Assembly (NCBI GenBank): GCA_964016885.1
Contig: OZ024749.1
Span: 34,100,001-34,164,000 of the forward strand
Direction of reading: 5' to 3'
Source: Eledone cirrhosa
Lineage: Eukaryota
Length of the DNA stretch: 64,000 nucleotides
Shown here: positions 7,847 to 63,112 of the stretch, piece by piece
Layout of the letters: every line of letters begins with the position of its first letter
Numbering within the stretch: position 1 is the stretch's first letter
Program-made: the position numbers and the translations under genes
The notes under the pieces: generated by a model
What the model was told of the DNA's origin: nothing
Database searches by the model: none
Seen by the model: the letters and a program-made list of their open reading frames with translations, nothing else

Positions 7847-7908
7847 CCAATGACCTCTACCCATCCCACTCCCCACCCTCTCCTACCACCTGAAGAGACC
7901 TATAAATA
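7847..7908 (+). promoter_or_regulatory. Putative Pol II promoter (CCAAT, CACCC-rich tract, TATAAATA) upstream of the HHR
   Basis: CCAAT 7847-7851, ccccaccc ~7871, TATAAATA 7901-7908, 30 nt before HHR helix I. Confidence 0.45.
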
Positions 7909-7930
7909 CCATATTTATTGTTTGATACCC

Positions 7931-7981
7931 AGATTCCTGATGATTTCTAAAGAATGAAACAGTTCTAGTCCTGTAGAATCT
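7931..7981 (+). ncRNA. Type I hammerhead ribozyme
   Basis: AGATTC CTGATGA tttct-aa-agaat GAAA CAG-ttctagtc-CTG TA GAATCT; 6-bp helix I, full stem III, GUA cleavage after 7975. Confidence 0.9.
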
Positions 7982-8067
7982 CATCTATATTAAAACTGTT
8001 ATACTCTGCTTTGTATTGAGTACCTTACTTACTGTGGTTACCTCCGATTCAACCCGGAGTAACGTAC

Positions 8068-9060: not shown

Positions 9061-9254
9061 GATGGGGTGTGGTAAAAAAACCAGGTAGACCATAACCCAC
9101 CAGAGTACTCGACTTAGGGTAGTAGAGTGGTTAATAGGAAAAGAGTCAGGTCCCCGACGGCTGAGCTCCGGCCGTTTCGACAGCTAGATCTCAACGTTCA
9201 GATCTAGCTGTCAAAACGGCCGGAGCTCAGCCTTCGGGGTCCTGACTCTTTTCA
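9061..9254 (-). mobile_element. Fold-back cassette, family 2
   Basis: Palindrome centred ~9195 (gaaaagagtcagg..ctgactcttttc) with tail to the left; (TA)n flanks. Confidence 0.9.
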
Positions 9255-9307: not shown

Positions 9308-9309
<2 letters not shown>

Positions 9310-9498
9310 CGAAGGAAATGTGGTAAGGAACCAGGTGGACCATAACGCACCAAAGTACTCAATACTTAGGGTAGTAGAGTGGGTAATAGGAACGAGTATG
9401 ACCCCGACGGCTGAGCTCAAGCCGTTTCGACGGCTAATTCTGGACTCAGAATTAGCCGTCGAAACGACTTGAGCTCAGCCGTCGGGGTCCTACTCGTT

Positions 9499-9501
<3 letters not shown>
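9308..9501 (-). mobile_element. Fold-back cassette, family 2
   Basis: Palindrome centred ~9444; tail contains gtactcaatacttagggtagtagagt (bulged hairpin on minus strand). Confidence 0.9.
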
Positions 9502-9556
<55 letters not shown>

Positions 9557-10850: not shown

Positions 10851-11123
10851 GATTCTCTTTATTTTTCAATTCACATTCCACCGTTGCGAAACTTATTTGG
10901 GTTTCGAGGTTCAAATTCGTCTACAGAACAGGTTTGAATTTCGAAATTTAAATATGTCCAGGAATCATGGCTGTTGCCAATATAAGCTTGTCTTTATTGA
11001 CTTATATCGAGACAGACAAATTGTATTTACTTTAATTAGTTTATTTCATTAATGGCTAACTTTGTCTGTTGCAATATGAACACATTTCGTGTTTATCATA
11101 TATTTTAAATATATATATATATA

Positions 11124-11300
11124 TAGGAAAAGAGTTAGGACCCGACAGCTGAGCTCCGGCCGTTTCGACAGCTAGTTCGGATCTAGCTGTCGAAACGGCC
11201 GGAGCTTCGAGAGTCGGGGACCTGACTCTTTTCCTATTACCCACTCTACGAGTACTCTGGTGCGTTATGGCCCACTTGGTATCTTACCACACCTTCTTTG
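11124..11300 (+). mobile_element. Fold-back cassette, family 2
   Basis: Palindrome centred ~11178; internally deleted tail hairpin (actctacgagtact). Confidence 0.88.
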
Positions 11301-11542
11301 TTTAATATATATATATATAAAATCAATAATAATGAGTTCAAATCTCAGGCGATCATTTACAATGAAATAGCTCGAAGAAAGACTATTCTGAGCCGTGTAA
11401 TATAGGTTAACACAAATCAATATATTTGATAAACAAATCCTCATATTTATGTATGTATTGTAAATGACCAAGTTAGCTAGATAGAAATATACTAATAATA
11501 TATATATCGTACTGCCTCACTGTTTTGTTCCCGTTCCATTTT

Positions 11543-11582: not shown

Positions 11583-12018
11583 ATGAAATAACAGGAGGCT
11601 GGACTGGTGTAAATCCTTGAAAAGTTTATTATACTATGATCATTTCAATGACCGGGTTCCATATGAATCCGGTGTTATCATCAGGTATTGGAATATAACA
11701 AAGGAATATGTAAAAGGTCTCTGTCTCTGATTTTTCGGACCCATGGCCTTTTACAGATTCCTTTGTTATATTTCAATACCTGATGATAACACCGGATTCA
11801 TATGGAACCCGGTCATTGAAATGATCATAGTATAATAAACCTTTCAAGGATTTACACTAGTCCAGCCTCCTGTTATTTCATTTATAATTAACTCCGTATT
11901 CGCACCACAAACGAAGATGGATGAACTGCACTGCGTTGAGTACTCTTCACAATATTACACCAGGATTGACCATACGGAATGACCAGTTCTATCCAGTGGT
12001 GAACCAACAAACCTAAAG
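11577..12018 (+). mobile_element. Fold-back HHR cassette, family 4 (~140-bp arms plus tail)
   Basis: Arms 11577-11718 and 11745-11886; tail ACTC-CGTA...TGCG-tt-GAGT 11891-11941; (TA)n flanks. Confidence 0.9.
11776..11833 (+). ncRNA. Type I hammerhead ribozyme (mirror copy on minus strand at 11631-11688)
   Basis: atac CTGATGA ..accgg-attc-atat-ggaa-cccggt.. GAAA tgatca TA gtat; palindromic stem III. Confidence 0.8.
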
Positions 12019-21148: not shown

Positions 21149-21425
<277 letters not shown>

Positions 21426-23570: not shown

Positions 23571-23610
<40 letters not shown>

Positions 23611-23611
23611 T

Positions 23612-23783
23612 TTTATAGAAGGAGCTTCTACAGGACTAGTACTGTTTCATTCATCCTGAAGATTTCATCTGAATGAAACAGTACTAGTCCTGTAGAAGCT
23701 CCTTCTACAAAATAAAAATAAAAAAAAAATAAAAAATTTTACTCTGCCATGTATTGAGTACCTTACTTACTGTGGTTATCCCC
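23612..23783 (+). mobile_element. Fold-back HHR cassette, family 1
   Basis: Inversion junction just 5' of CTGAAGA tttca-tc-tgaat GAAA cag-tactagtc-ctg TA gaagct; hairpin 23741-23759. Confidence 0.88.
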
Positions 23784-24034: not shown

Positions 24035-24262
24035 AGTAATAATAATAAATTTGAAAACTAAAATCCAAAGTGGACTCGATAAGGATAAATATATATCAAA
24101 TATATAAGAACCGTAGAGCAAATATTTATTAAAATAACAGATTAAAGTTTAAGCAAAGAATCGCTGCTTTCACCCTTAACGGGATCTTCTGAAATTGTTT
24201 CAGAAGATCCCGTTAAGGGTGAAAGCAGCGATTCTTTGCTTAAACTTTAATCTGTTATTTTA

Positions 24263-24268
<6 letters not shown>
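24035..24268 (-). mobile_element. Fold-back cassette, family 3 (variant HHR core CAGAAGA)
   Basis: Perfect ~70-bp arms centred ~24196; tail to the left. Confidence 0.88.
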
Positions 24269-24299
<31 letters not shown>

Positions 24300-24718: not shown

Positions 24719-24912
24719 AGGAGAATGTTTTACCCCGACGGCAGAGCTCAAGCCGTTTCGACGGCTATTTCTGAGTCCAGAAATAGCCGTCGAAACTGCT
24801 TGAGCTCTGCCGTCGAGGTTAAACATTTTCCTATTACCCACTCTACTACCCTAAGTATTGTGTACTCTGGTACATTATGGTTCATCTGGTTCCTTACCAC
24901 ACTTCCTTCGTT
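24719..24912 (+). mobile_element. Fold-back cassette, family 2
   Basis: Palindrome centred ~24775 with compensatory ggcagagc/gctctgcc; tail ccactctactaccctaagtattg. Confidence 0.9.
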
Positions 24913-26522: not shown

Positions 26523-26525
<3 letters not shown>

Positions 26526-26905
26526 CAAAGTCGGACCTGGCGGTTGAGTTCTTGCAGTTTCGACTGCAAATTTCAGACTGGGATAAAATTCCCTGTTGTG
26601 AATAAACCGTCTCATCAAGGGCGTGACCTAAGGTGATTGACACTCAACCAATCCCTAAAATACAAAATATATAAACAAATGATTCTACAACTTACATTAA
26701 TCGCCTTCAAAGAAACCATATCCACTTATCCACTTATTGACACGTCAATCACCTTAGGCCACGCCTCATTCATAGCAGGGTGTTTTACCTGCAGTCTGGA
26801 ATTTGCCGTTGAAACGACAAGAGCTCAGTAAATATAGTTACACTCTACTATCCCAAGCACCGAGTACTCTGCTGAATAATGGTCAGACTAGTTTAAAACT
26901 GGTAT
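26523..26905 (+). mobile_element. Older, longer fold-back relative of family 2 retaining the HHR core
   Basis: Left arm minus strand: ccc TTGATGA gacgg..cagtc GAAA ctgc..; arms 26540-26642 and 26744-26828; tail actctactatcccaagcaccgagtact. Confidence 0.75.
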
Positions 26906-34852: not shown

Positions 34853-34892
<40 letters not shown>

Positions 34893-34896
<4 letters not shown>

Positions 34897-35090
34897 AACC
34901 AGTAAGACCCCGACAGCTGAGCTCAAGCCGTTTCGACGGCTAATTCTGGACTGAGTCCAGAATTAGCCGTCGAAACGGCTTGAGCTCAGCTGTCGGGGTC
35001 TTACTGGTTCCTATTACCCACTCTACTACCTCAAGTATTGAGTACTTTGGTGCGTTATGGTCCACCTGGTTCCTTACCACATTTCCTTCG

Positions 35091-35092
<2 letters not shown>
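34893..35092 (+). mobile_element. Fold-back cassette, family 2 (perfect 60-bp arms)
   Basis: Centre ggactgagtcc ~34953; GAAA cggct-tgagctc-agctg TC gggg; hairpin 35020-35043. Confidence 0.92.
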
Positions 35093-35146
<54 letters not shown>

Positions 35147-41411: not shown

Positions 41412-44257
<2,846 letters not shown>

Positions 44258-45580
44258 AATCATCATCATCATCATCGTCATTATCATCATCATCATCGTC
44301 ATTATCATCATCATTGTAGTGTATTCCACTCCTGTGTTATTTTTCCCTGTTGACTATTCTTATATAAATATACAAAGCTGGTTTGCTTTGGCAGAAACAA
44401 CAACGCTGACAACCAAAGGAAAATCAACAAAAAAAGTCACTCACATAACGAAGGACTCCCATCCAATTAAATGCCAGAATCTAATATATAAAATGTATAG
44501 ACAATATATTCCTCTTGGATCAATATATTCATGATGCTGGGAAGAAATTAGTTAGGTTATTTGCTAAGCAACTTCTAATTAATGATTTCTACTAACTGCA
44601 AAATGTAAGCAATCTCGCGAGATGGGAAAGATGATTAAATCGACCCCAGTGCGTTACTGGTACTTTACTTTATCGATTTTGTAAGGATGAAAGGCAAAGC
44701 TAACCTCGGCGTGTCAAACCGGTGTTGAAATAAGAAGAACTTGTTTGCCGTTTAACTGGATTACAAGAAATCATTTGATTCTATTTCCCACCCCTAATTG
44801 CTTGAGGGTATTCGACTCGCTAAAGTTTCAGAGACTATAACCAGAGTTGAAGACTATCTATCATCGCTTTAAGCCACCACTATGACGTTAACTAGAGAAT
44901 GTGATTCTATTGTCGCCGGTGTGTATTTCTATGAGACAATCTCTCTGTGTTGTTGTAACCTCTTCTCTGCAAACGAAGAGTACATGTATATCACGAGACA
45001 ACAGAAATACCGACTTAGTACATTGCTCCTTTTTGAACCACCTCTAAGTATACACAAAGGATAATAACTTTATAAAACGAAAACAACTCGACTGGAGCAA
45101 TATAAAATCAAGTGATTTGCTAAAAGATACAACACGCAGCTGGGAATCGATCTCATGACCTTACGAGTGTAAGCCAAACATACTATCCACTATGCTACGC
45201 GCACTTTTATTAACAATGATGTAGACCACCTCCAGCTAAAGTGAAAACGAGGAAGCAGATGTTTAATAATTATAATAGTGGCGGGAAATTAATCACATGG
45301 TTTGACTTGTGCCAAACGAGTTAGATTGGCGATTTTCTATGGCGTTTATCCAAGTGCAATTGAACAAACTCTGCAGTGTTGCGCAATGACAATTAGCGTC
45401 AAGAATTAATTATATTTAAAACATGGTTACTGCTATCTAAATTTTGACATAAAAGACAGATGCTTCATATGTTTGTTACAGACAGTACTTTTAATATCCA
45501 ATTGAAATATCATTGCAATTTCCTGCCATTATCAGTAAACCATTACTACAACATTTTGACTATGTTTAATATTTATATAT

Positions 45581-45765
45581 ATAGAAAAAGAGTCAGGACC
45601 CCAACGGCTGAGCTCCGGCCGTTTCGATAGCTAGATCCGAACTGTTCGGATCTAGTTGTCGAAACGGCCGGAGCTCAGCCGTCGGTGTCCTGACTCTTTT
45701 CCTATTACCGACTCTACTACCCTAAGTATTGAGTGTTTTATGGTCCACCTGGTATCTTACCAGAC
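45581..45765 (+). mobile_element. Fold-back cassette, family 2
   Basis: Centre tccgaactgttcgga ~45643; tail actctactaccctaagtattgagt. Confidence 0.9.
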
Positions 45766-46659: not shown

Positions 46660-46920
46660 GATTTCATGGGCGAGAAAGACCAAAATCCAAAGAGGGCTCG
46701 ATAAGGATTGTATATATATATATATATATGATATAATATAATAAAAAGTATACATAAACCTGCAAAGCAAATATTTATTATAATTACAGATTAAAGTTTA
46801 AGAAAAGAATTTCTGCTTTCACCCAATTATGGGATTTTCTGAAACTCTGAGTTTCAGAAGATCCCGTAATAGGGTGAAAGCAGAGATGATTTGCTTAAAC
46901 TTTAATCTGTACTTATAATA
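46660..46920 (-). mobile_element. Fold-back cassette, family 3
   Basis: Centre gaaactctgagtttc ~46848; agttt CAGAAGA tccc..gggt GAAA gca..tgc TT aaact. Confidence 0.85.
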
Positions 46921-52323: not shown

Positions 52324-52356
<33 letters not shown>

Positions 52357-52360
<4 letters not shown>

Positions 52361-52548
52361 AAGTATAACCCCGACGGCAGAGCTCAAGCCGTTTCGACGG
52401 CTATTTCTGTCCAGAAATAGTCGTCGAAACGGCTTGAGCTCTGCCGTCGGGGACATACTTTTTCCTATTACCCACTCTACTACCCTAAGTATTGAGTACT
52501 CTGGTGCATTATGGTGTATCTGGTTCCTTACCACACACCTCCTTCGTT
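52357..52548 (+). mobile_element. Fold-back cassette, family 2
   Basis: Centre ttctgtccagaa ~52410; full tail with bulged hairpin. Confidence 0.9.
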
Positions 52549-62887: not shown

Positions 62888-63112
62888 ATAAATGAAGTAT
62901 TTCCGTCGGAAAGGTACAGGAAAAAAGAGTGCTCTATGTAGGCTACAGAGCTTATTAGTTATGTAATAAACAACATAAGATAATTATTTCATTTACCAGT
63001 GGTTTCTTGAAGGCAGATGTTATGTCTGTCTTCAGTCGTCAGAATGAATAAATATTTATTCATTCTGACTGAAGACAGACATAACATCTGCCTTCAAGAA
63101 ACCACATAACTA
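62888..63112 (-). mobile_element. Fold-back HHR cassette sharing the family 5 tail
   Basis: Tail matches 22570-22657; palindrome centred ~63053. Confidence 0.85.
62990..63046 (-). ncRNA. Type I hammerhead ribozyme
   Basis: catt CTGACGA ctgaagacaga-cataaca-tctgccttcaa GAAA cca-c-tgg TA aatg. Confidence 0.82.

What the first reader, a model, noticed from the sequence alone, without database searches (positions are those of the whole stretch)
34893..35092. Family 2 palindromes are centred in HHR stem II, replacing the catalytic core with a mirror image
Seen: seven copies keep the 3' half of an HHR (stem II 3' strand, GAAA, cggct/agccg stem III, GUC, gggg) on both strands but lack CUGANGA; symmetry centres fall in the stem II loop and differ slightly between copies. 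The older relative at 26523-26905 retains TTGATGA-gacgg..cagtc-GAAA, showing the ancestral full ribozyme. Inference: nascent cDNA snaps back on stem II and self-primes, or two cDNAs anneal there; the product is a dead but perfectly paired hairpin generated independently many times.
Basis: partly seen in the sequence, partly recalled or inferred. Interest (0 to 1): 0.8.

Follow-up and report, generated by a model that had tools for sequence, protein, structure and literature searches.

The report
Retroelement palindromes mark capped RNA starts
Thousands of short DNA palindromes in this genome are head-to-head pieces of a Penelope-like retrotransposon whose centres likely mark where its capped RNA begins (or, rarely, where its ribozyme likely cut it), a genome-written record of how these little-understood elements likely copy themselves.

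Summary
Observation confirmed, mechanism revised. The seven window copies belong to a family of at least 12,941 short palindromes. They come from a Penelope-like element with the Hydra-clade motifs. Both arms of the focal copy match an intact 3.5-kb tandem unit exactly. Source ribozymes carry a U3-A8 core, not CUGANGA. Snap-back on stem II is not supported: its predicted products have 0 and 1 genome hits. Arms stop 11-22 nt before GAAA, at an Initiator-like motif. An untemplated C follows on both arms in 106 palindromes, against 2 with T; extra C is the known signature of copying a 5' cap. A second family is centred 30 nt after a TATA box and upstream of its core, so lying in stem II is incidental. 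A minor class ends at the ribozyme cut site: 192 copies, against 1 and 6 at neighbouring positions. Best reading: two cDNAs are primed at two internal sites near the RNA 5' end, run off it, and are joined head to head. No RNA data were available.

The parts
34893..34952 (-). Short arm: copy of the element from position -18 (G of GAAA = 0) to the first internal priming site at the end of hammerhead stem I
   Evidence: 0 differences in 60 nt from the intact tandem unit in L261
34953..34953 (.). Single untemplated base at the centre (G on +, C on the tail-arm cDNA strand); likely a copy of the RNA cap
   Evidence: genome-wide C bias
34954..35092 (+). Long arm: position -18 (A of an Initiator-like motif, likely transcription start) to the second internal priming site
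   Evidence: 0 differences in 139 nt from the L261 unit
34964..34998 (+). 3' half of a type I hammerhead: stem II 3' strand 34964-34971, GAAA 34972-34975, stem III, predicted cut after 34994, stem I GGGG 34995-34998
   Evidence: sequence; pairing in the full source ribozyme
35008..35014 (+). TTCCTAT, first priming site; shares TAT with the (TA)n target
   Evidence: short arms end here
35015..35092 (+). Tail between the two priming sites; in source units it continues into the 5' UTR and ORF
   Evidence: (L149)
34857..34892 (.). (TA)n target, left
35093..35144 (.). (TA)n target, right
9308..9503 (-). Family copy, arms stopping at about -14 and -18
24719..24912 (+). Family copy (CTCTGCC subfamily), same centre type as the 9308 copy
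52353..52548 (+). Family copy (CTCTGCC subfamily)
9068..9241 (-). Older-subfamily copy
45597..45762 (+). Older-subfamily copy, arms stopping at -18 and -17
11123..11302 (+). Older-subfamily copy, asymmetric centre
26523..26905 (.). Diverged sister-family inverted insertion; whole hammerhead on the minus strand at 26618 with the same Initiator-like motif at -18
7901..8050 (+). Second hammerhead family used as control: TATAAATA at 7901, likely start at 7931, core CTGATGA at 7937; its palindromes (e.g. 21260-21368, 23604-23721) keep core sequence

Best explanation
These palindromes are short head-to-head insertions of a Penelope-like retrotransposon, likely made when its reverse transcriptase primes twice from a cut (TA)n target at two internal sites near the RNA's 5' end and both cDNAs likely run off the capped end, after which they would be joined by end repair. 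Shown: the source element; the two fixed outer ends (+43 and about +119 from GAAA); stops at -11 to -22; the extra C; coupling of the two arms; a second stop class at the ribozyme cut site. Inferred: -18 (with -22 as a second site) is the transcription start; the C copies the cap; both cDNAs usually come from one RNA molecule; RNAs cut by the hammerhead give the tiny class; RNAs with continuous sequence upstream (uncut 3' repeat, tandem read-through or circle) give the long class. The catalytic core is missing because transcription likely begins inside loop II, downstream of it, not because a cDNA folded on stem II.
For: (1) Of 58 tail arms reaching -11, 51 stop at -11 to -22; of all 90 sampled, 1 stops between -23 and -50. 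(2) A YYANWYY motif (recalled Initiator consensus) has its A at -18 in 22 of 28 distinct ribozyme variants, including lineages with unrelated loop II sequence; an older subfamily stops at -17/-18 in about 35 of 50 listed, under a pattern that required both arms to reach -17 (hand tally). (3) Extra base on both arms after -18: C 106, T 2, G 34, of which 30 are templated by a known subfamily. (4) Second family: 1,014 palindromes; ends lie 30 nt after TATAAATA; of 29 arms reaching +1 with a further base, 23 have C where the template gives G; 1 of 50 reads through (hand tally). PMC6885630 (passages) shows +C with capped and not with uncapped RNA. (5) Cut-site class 192 against 1 and 6; 22 of the 24 listed inserts there are A/T only, as expected for an uncapped end. 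(6) Arms share their fate: all 13 long insertions whose partner was found have a partner passing -23. (7) In 17 of 58 insertions the tail-less arm reaches at least 5 nt further 5' than the tail arm, which one folded cDNA cannot give. (8) Template jumps join at -14 to -21 and at the cut site. (9) Two internal start sites bounding a tail were shown in vitro for another Penelope-like element (PMC11167929, parts 1-2 read).
Against: No RNA evidence was obtained. Stops spread over 12 nt, so trimming or several starts must be assumed. Among palindromes with both arms in the hot spot, the tail arm is the longer in 24, the shorter in 9 and equal in 5, a lean towards fold-back. Of 18 5'-UTR-bearing loci that reach stem II, 12 run seamlessly through -18 and only 6 begin there (hand classification; two loci are one insertion), so most long copies were not made from a simple monomer RNA starting at -18. 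The motif also reads as a 3' splice site. A few insertions have discordant arms (L016, L022, L074, one row). 33 of 100 listed source cores have a C3-A8 mismatch. 26 of 50 listed cut-site palindromes have no insert and could arise through CG microhomology. The cap signature is documented for MMLV RT, not for a Penelope-like RT.
Confidence: 0.8

Rival explanations
1. One cDNA snaps back, either on stem II or at the end of the RNA, and copies itself to make the mirror arm.
For: Arms are nearly identical within a copy; the tail arm is longer at the centre in 24 of 38; self-priming was proposed for head-to-head palindromes of Penelope-like elements (PMC3846280, Discussion read).
Against: Stem II snap-back product 0 hits (two main young subfamilies tested); distal-hairpin product 1 hit, against 12,941 palindromes; 17 of 58 insertions have a tail-less arm carrying sequence absent from the tail arm; C on both arms in 106; the second family is centred upstream of its core.
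Confidence: 0.07
2. The reverse transcriptase stalls at a fixed obstacle in a longer RNA: a fold, a bound protein, or a 3' splice site or branch point (YAG at -19 to -17).
For: A pyrimidine-AG motif is conserved at -19 to -17; an intron ends at the Drosophila Penelope ribozyme (PMC4209133, passage); A-runs occur at some junctions.
Against: A pause would act on each arm separately, but arms are coupled; pass rate is 7 of 58 against 12 of 18 depending on template context (p = 1.6e-5); it does not predict the C bias or the 30-nt TATA spacing of the second family; arms include the AG and intron-side bases; loop II sequence differs between lineages while the stop does not.
Confidence: 0.09
3. Long inverted insertions collapsed after integration, or a few preformed palindromes were copied whole.
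For: About 40 of 100 listed very short palindromes are centred on the self-complementary stem III (hand tally), which fits later deletion; some centres recur.
Against: 34 distinct junctions in 38; recurrent centres occur in both orientations relative to the tail and in different subfamilies; untemplated bases lie at the centres; lone arms and template jumps share the same boundary.
Confidence: 0.04

Closest known systems
Hydra-clade Penelope-like elements (PMC8557442, section 11 and passages read)
   Same: Single RT plus C-terminal GIY-YIG ORF with RWR, DKT and CxCX5C; (TA)n targets; hammerhead; tail at one end; inverted 5'-truncated copy at the 5' end.
   Different: Unit is 3.5 kb (most described families are under 3 kb); U3-A8 core with a long loop II; the parts read give no link between inversion centres and a capped start or the cut site.
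Poseidon element PAc of Anolis (PMC11167929, parts 1-2 of 4 read)
   Same: Two internal reverse-transcription starts bounding a tail; both target strands cut and extended; AT-rich targets; hammerhead in the repeat.
   Different: Different clade; tail about 75 nt here; that study found no RNA reads ending at the ribozyme cut site, whereas insertions here pile up there.
Head-to-head palindromes in Adineta Penelope elements (PMC3846280, Discussion and passages read)
   Same: Head-to-head inverted repeats with palindromic junctions; TATA- and Initiator-like motifs in the pseudo-LTR.
   Different: Interpreted there as self-priming on an antisense template, with a sense template not excluded; here the data favour two cDNAs from the sense RNA.
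Penelope-element hammerheads, including the U3-A8 variant of Schistosoma Cercyon (PMC4209133, passages and Discussion read)
   Same: Type I topology, U3-A8 covariation, palindromic loop III, pairs on opposite strands.
   Different: Full-size stems and a ~37-nt loop II holding the likely promoter; genomic footprint of cleavage.
L1 twin priming (recalled, no call)
   Same: Two primings on one RNA give an inverted 5' part; the non-overlapping cases here (L004, L005, L017, L070, L075) look like it.
   Different: Here both cDNAs usually copy the same stretch, giving a palindrome, and priming sites are fixed internal sites, not poly(A).

Membership tests
Hydra-clade Penelope-like element | Single ORF, RT with C-terminal GIY-YIG endonuclease | tested here: met
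   717-719 aa ORF with YIG at 606; 403 full-length relatives; Pfam and PDB gave no hit for P0001, so domain naming rests on motifs
Hydra-clade Penelope-like element | RWK-type motif, DKT for DKG, CxCX5C linker | tested here: met
   RWR 37, DKT 117, CxCX5C 572 against the definition
Hydra-clade Penelope-like element | Insertion into (TA)n; tail at one end; tandem and inverted structure | tested here: met
Hydra-clade Penelope-like element | Absence of the CCHH motif; phylogenetic placement with reference Hydra proteins | not tested
   no reference set was fetched and no tree was built
Type I hammerhead ribozyme (source copies) | Three-way junction with stems I, II, III, GAAA and NUH | tested here: met
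   minimum-energy fold of the L261 ribozyme is hammerhead-shaped; stem II covariation CGGCT/AGCCG to CAGCT/AGCTG. Single-sequence folds of five other copies were not cleanly hammerhead-shaped
Type I hammerhead ribozyme (source copies) | Pairing of core positions 3 and 8 | tested here: inconclusive
   hand tally of 100 listed cores: 62 U3-A8, 33 C3-A8 mismatch, 5 other, 0 canonical C3-G8
Type I hammerhead ribozyme (source copies) | Self-cleavage | not testable with these tools
   indirect only: 192 insertions end at the predicted site against 1 and 6 nearby
Type I hammerhead ribozyme (the palindromic copies) | 5' core and stem I and II 5' strands | tested here: not met
   absent; the copy folds as one 60-bp hairpin
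Non-LTR retrozyme | Short tandem repeats, each with a whole type I hammerhead | tested here: not met
   copies are dispersed inverted pairs without a core; definition from preprint 10.64898/2026.07.22.740005, part 1 of 5 read
RNA polymerase II core promoter (TATA/Initiator) | Capped transcripts starting at the Initiator A | not testable with these tools
   indirect only: motif, TATA spacing and C signature; consensus motifs are recalled

The most novel reading that the evidence does not exclude
The 61- and 137-nt cDNAs are the Penelope counterpart of retroviral strong-stop DNA. Reverse transcription starts near the capped 5' end, runs off it, and normally jumps to the 3' end made by the hammerhead, using the 40-nt overlap between the start site (-18) and the cut site (+22). 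Repeated jumps build pseudo-LTRs and seamless tandems such as the five-unit array; the palindromes are intermediates integrated before the jump. A telomerase-related retroelement would then have reached an LTR-like strand-transfer cycle with a ribozyme defining the repeat.
Probability: 0.3. Interest if true: 0.82.

Novelty: new variant of a known kind. Interest (0 to 1): 0.63.

Why it matters
How Penelope-like elements, the sister group of telomerase, make their tandem and inverted insertions is an open question. The papers read call for an in vitro system (PMC8557442), leave sense versus antisense template undecided (PMC3846280) and note the lack of in vivo evidence for ribozyme cleavage (PMC4209133). 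Here thousands of insertions give base-level readouts: a sense, probably capped template; two primings; a probable start site inside the ribozyme, which would leave the 5' copy unable to cut itself; and a cleavage footprint for a U3-A8 hammerhead. The approach maps start and cut sites from a genome alone and held for a second family. The palindromes may also be a large source of perfect hairpin RNA (untested).

Tried and rejected
Rfam listed no hammerhead among the 150 of 330 matches shown, only hairpin and simple-repeat matches below family thresholds. A DNA search of the genome returned nothing because common words are skipped. Pfam and PDB gave no hit for the ORF. My first clade guess, Neptune, was dropped. 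A pseudoknot between loop II and the stem I bulge showed no consistent covariation by eye. Stalling at a U-run or at a distal loop II hairpin was dropped because the older lineage lacks both yet stops at the same place. A fixed distance from the primer was dropped because both arms and lone arms stop at the same site. Depletion of the partly C3-A8 subfamily among cut-site copies was inconclusive (7 of 50, against 6 of 36 or 20 of 41 depending on baseline; hand tallies). One search counted read-through arms and did not test snap-back; one search did. Target-site duplications cannot be read in (TA)n. Three look-ups of earlier findings returned nothing. Literature searches surfaced no paper tying Penelope inversion centres to capped starts or to strong-stop transfer; subscription papers are not searched and no supplements were opened, so prior description is not excluded.

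Full report
Numbering. Positions are relative to the G of the hammerhead GAAA (0 = window 34972). The predicted cut lies between +22 and +23.

1. Seven copies are in the window. Each is a short inverted arm and a long arm between (TA)n tracts. The short arm always ends at TTCCTAT (+43); the long arm ends about 75 nt further on. The focal hairpin is perfect over 60 bp. The window lies in a 3.0-Gb genome, where a 34-nt piece of the ribozyme's 3' half has 44,229 exact hits and the head-to-head form with a spacer of at most 30 nt has 12,941. These are exact-match counts, so lower bounds.

2. The source. Unfolded copies run upstream into a 3' UTR of about 1.1 kb and a reverse transcriptase-endonuclease ORF. 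A seamless five-unit tandem array (period 3,543 bp, units 99.8-100% identical) has open 717-719 aa frames in the two units translated, with RWR, DKT, CxCX5C and YIG motifs. These match the Hydra clade as defined in PMC8557442; no tree was built. Both focal arms are identical to this unit (0 of 139 and 0 of 60 differences), both begin at -18, and one extra base separates them. In source units the tail continues into the 5' UTR and start codon, so both outer ends are internal sites of the RNA, each sharing TAT with the target. This agrees with the two internal initiation sites shown in vitro for an Anolis element.

3. The source ribozyme. The core is cccc-YTGANAA-G, with 2,928 hits. Of 100 listed cores, 62 are U3-A8, 33 C3-A8, 5 other and none canonical (hand tally). 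U3-A8 is a known covariant in Penelope-element hammerheads. The native 5' strand of stem II differs from the mirror arm, so the mirror arm is a copy of the 3' side. The array's ribozyme folds as a hammerhead at minimum energy. The relative at 26523-26905 is a diverged sister family.

4. Where arms stop. I mapped 90 insertions chosen only by their tail end, the first 90 of 15,369 hits. Tail arms stop at -51 or beyond in 6, -50 to -23 in 1, -22 to -11 in 51, -10 to +19 in 5, +20 to +25 in 8, +26 to +43 in 6 and beyond +43 in 13. Of 58 adjacent partners, 49 stop at -22 to -11. The 38 with both arms there show 34 distinct junctions. Recurrent centres occur in both orientations, so they formed repeatedly.

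5. Not snap-back. A cDNA folding on stem II would keep the whole loop; that product has 0 hits. Folding on the distal hairpin gives 1 hit. In 17 of 58 insertions the tail-less arm reaches further 5' than the tail arm, by up to about 160 nt in this sample; it contains sequence that a tail-primed cDNA lacks, and it cannot itself supply the tail. Against my reading, within the hot spot the tail arm is the longer in 24, the shorter in 9 and equal in 5.

6. The stop behaves like an RNA end. The arms share their fate. All 13 long insertions among L031-L060 whose partner could be found have a partner that also passes -23; for the rest no partner lay within the fetched DNA. Among 50 listed palindromes with both arms reaching -18, six have C next on both arms and two pair C with the templated A (hand tally). 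Template jumps join at -14 to -21 and at +23. An older subfamily with an unrelated loop II stops at -17/-18. What is conserved is a YYANWYY motif with its A at -18, in 22 of 28 distinct variants; this is the Initiator consensus as I recall it. Young lineages also have a TCATT motif at -22 and a TATTTAAA 29 nt upstream of -18. Genome-wide, the base after -18 on both arms is C in 106 palindromes, T in 2 and G in 34, 30 of which read the template of the ATTCAG subfamily. Extra C is what MMLV reverse transcriptase adds opposite a cap and not on uncapped RNA; extending this to a Penelope enzyme is inference.

7. Control family. A second hammerhead family in the window (27,663 hits) forms 1,014 palindromes under one pattern. 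Their arms end at +1 or +2 of a CCAGATT motif 30 nt after TATAAATA and 6 nt before CTGATGA. Of 29 arms reaching +1 with a further base, 23 have C, 4 G (templated), 1 T and 1 A; three palindromes with a single ambiguous base were left out, and two rows may be a duplicate. One of 50 reads through. These palindromes keep the core on both arms. Loss of the core in family 2 therefore follows from where its RNA starts.

8. A cleavage footprint. Palindromes with both arms ending at GGGG (+23) number 192, against 1 centred 3 nt upstream and 6 centred 4 nt downstream. Of 50 listed, 26 have no insert (compatible with CG microhomology), 22 have only A/T and 2 have C or G. The contrast with the C at -18 fits an uncapped, cut end. 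This is indirect evidence that the U3-A8 ribozyme cuts in vivo; PMC4209133 noted the lack of such evidence and PMC11167929 found no RNA reads at the site in Anolis.

9. Mechanism. Transcription likely starts at -18 or -22 inside loop II of the upstream repeat, so the 5' copy of the ribozyme is incomplete. The element protein cuts both strands of (TA)n and primes at +43 and about +119. On that 5' copy both cDNAs run off the cap after about 61 and 137 nt, and end joining with small deletions or insertions fuses them. Copying one stretch twice would need strand displacement (recalled: these enzymes lack RNase H). Cut RNAs give the tiny class. Templates continuous upstream give long pairs: 12 of 18 UTR-bearing loci run seamlessly through -18, which a monomer RNA does not explain. 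Tandem read-through, circular RNA (proposed in PMC4209133) or a jump from the 5' to the 3' repeat through the -18 to +22 overlap all fit, and I cannot separate them.

10. Novelty. Inverted truncated copies, tails, hammerheads, the U3-A8 variant, internal promoters and internal initiation are known for Penelope-like elements. Head-to-head palindromes were read as antisense self-priming. In the searches listed under Tried and rejected I found no account linking the centres to capped starts or to cut sites. Papers seen: PMC8557442 (passages, section 11), PMC11167929 (parts 1-2 of 4), PMC4209133 (passages, Discussion), PMC3846280 (passages, Discussion), PMC2377424 (passages), PMC6885630 (passages), preprint 10.64898/2026.07.22.740005 (part 1 of 5). 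No supplements were opened.

Verdict: a real feature and a new variant of a known kind. Interest 0.63.

Noticed in passing
L262:6671-10000 and L263:1-240 (G000 C1, about 91.489-91.493 Mb): A 55-bp piece of the ORF is repeated head to tail about 60 times between the two inverted arms of a very young insertion; it looks like reiterative copying by the reverse transcriptase, reminiscent of telomerase repeat addition.
   Followed up: no
L261 and L262 (G000 C1:91,473,000-91,489,200): Seamless five-unit tandem array of the full element, 99.8-100% identical, with open reading frames in the two units translated; likely a very recent insertion.
   Followed up: partly
L149/L201/L202, L139, L220, L212, L219, L228: Multi-segment insertions whose segments begin at -14 to -21 and are joined to internal points of the 5' UTR or ORF; L205 and L207 join at the cut site.
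   Followed up: partly
L014: An arm of this family is joined at -19 to a hairpin of the unrelated family seen at window 24122-24270, suggesting a jump between RNAs of different families.
   Followed up: no
window 24122-24270 and 46811-46885: A third palindrome family with a hammerhead-like core variant; at 46811 both arms end in AGTTT preceded by G, the same pattern as a cap copy.
   Followed up: no
L016 and L022: Same rare subfamily; a stem III variant sits on the tail arm in one and on the short arm in the other, hinting at two different RNA templates in one insertion.
   Followed up: no
L021, L129 and rows: Runs of A in the cDNA (T on the sense strand) directly beyond -21, possibly slippage at the start site.
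   Followed up: no
window 11620-11900, 63005-63099, 1457-1600, 21655, 41344: Further minimal-hammerhead motifs and inverted pairs (CTGATGA or CTGAAGA ... GAAA); several Penelope-like families appear to share this window.
   Followed up: no
L231, L235, L236, L237, L243, L251: Copies of the second family with nearly identical flanks at six places on C1; probably carried inside a larger repeat.
   Followed up: no
window 41913-44263: A (TA)-type self-complementary tract of about 2.3 kb that dominates inverted-repeat scans.
   Followed up: no
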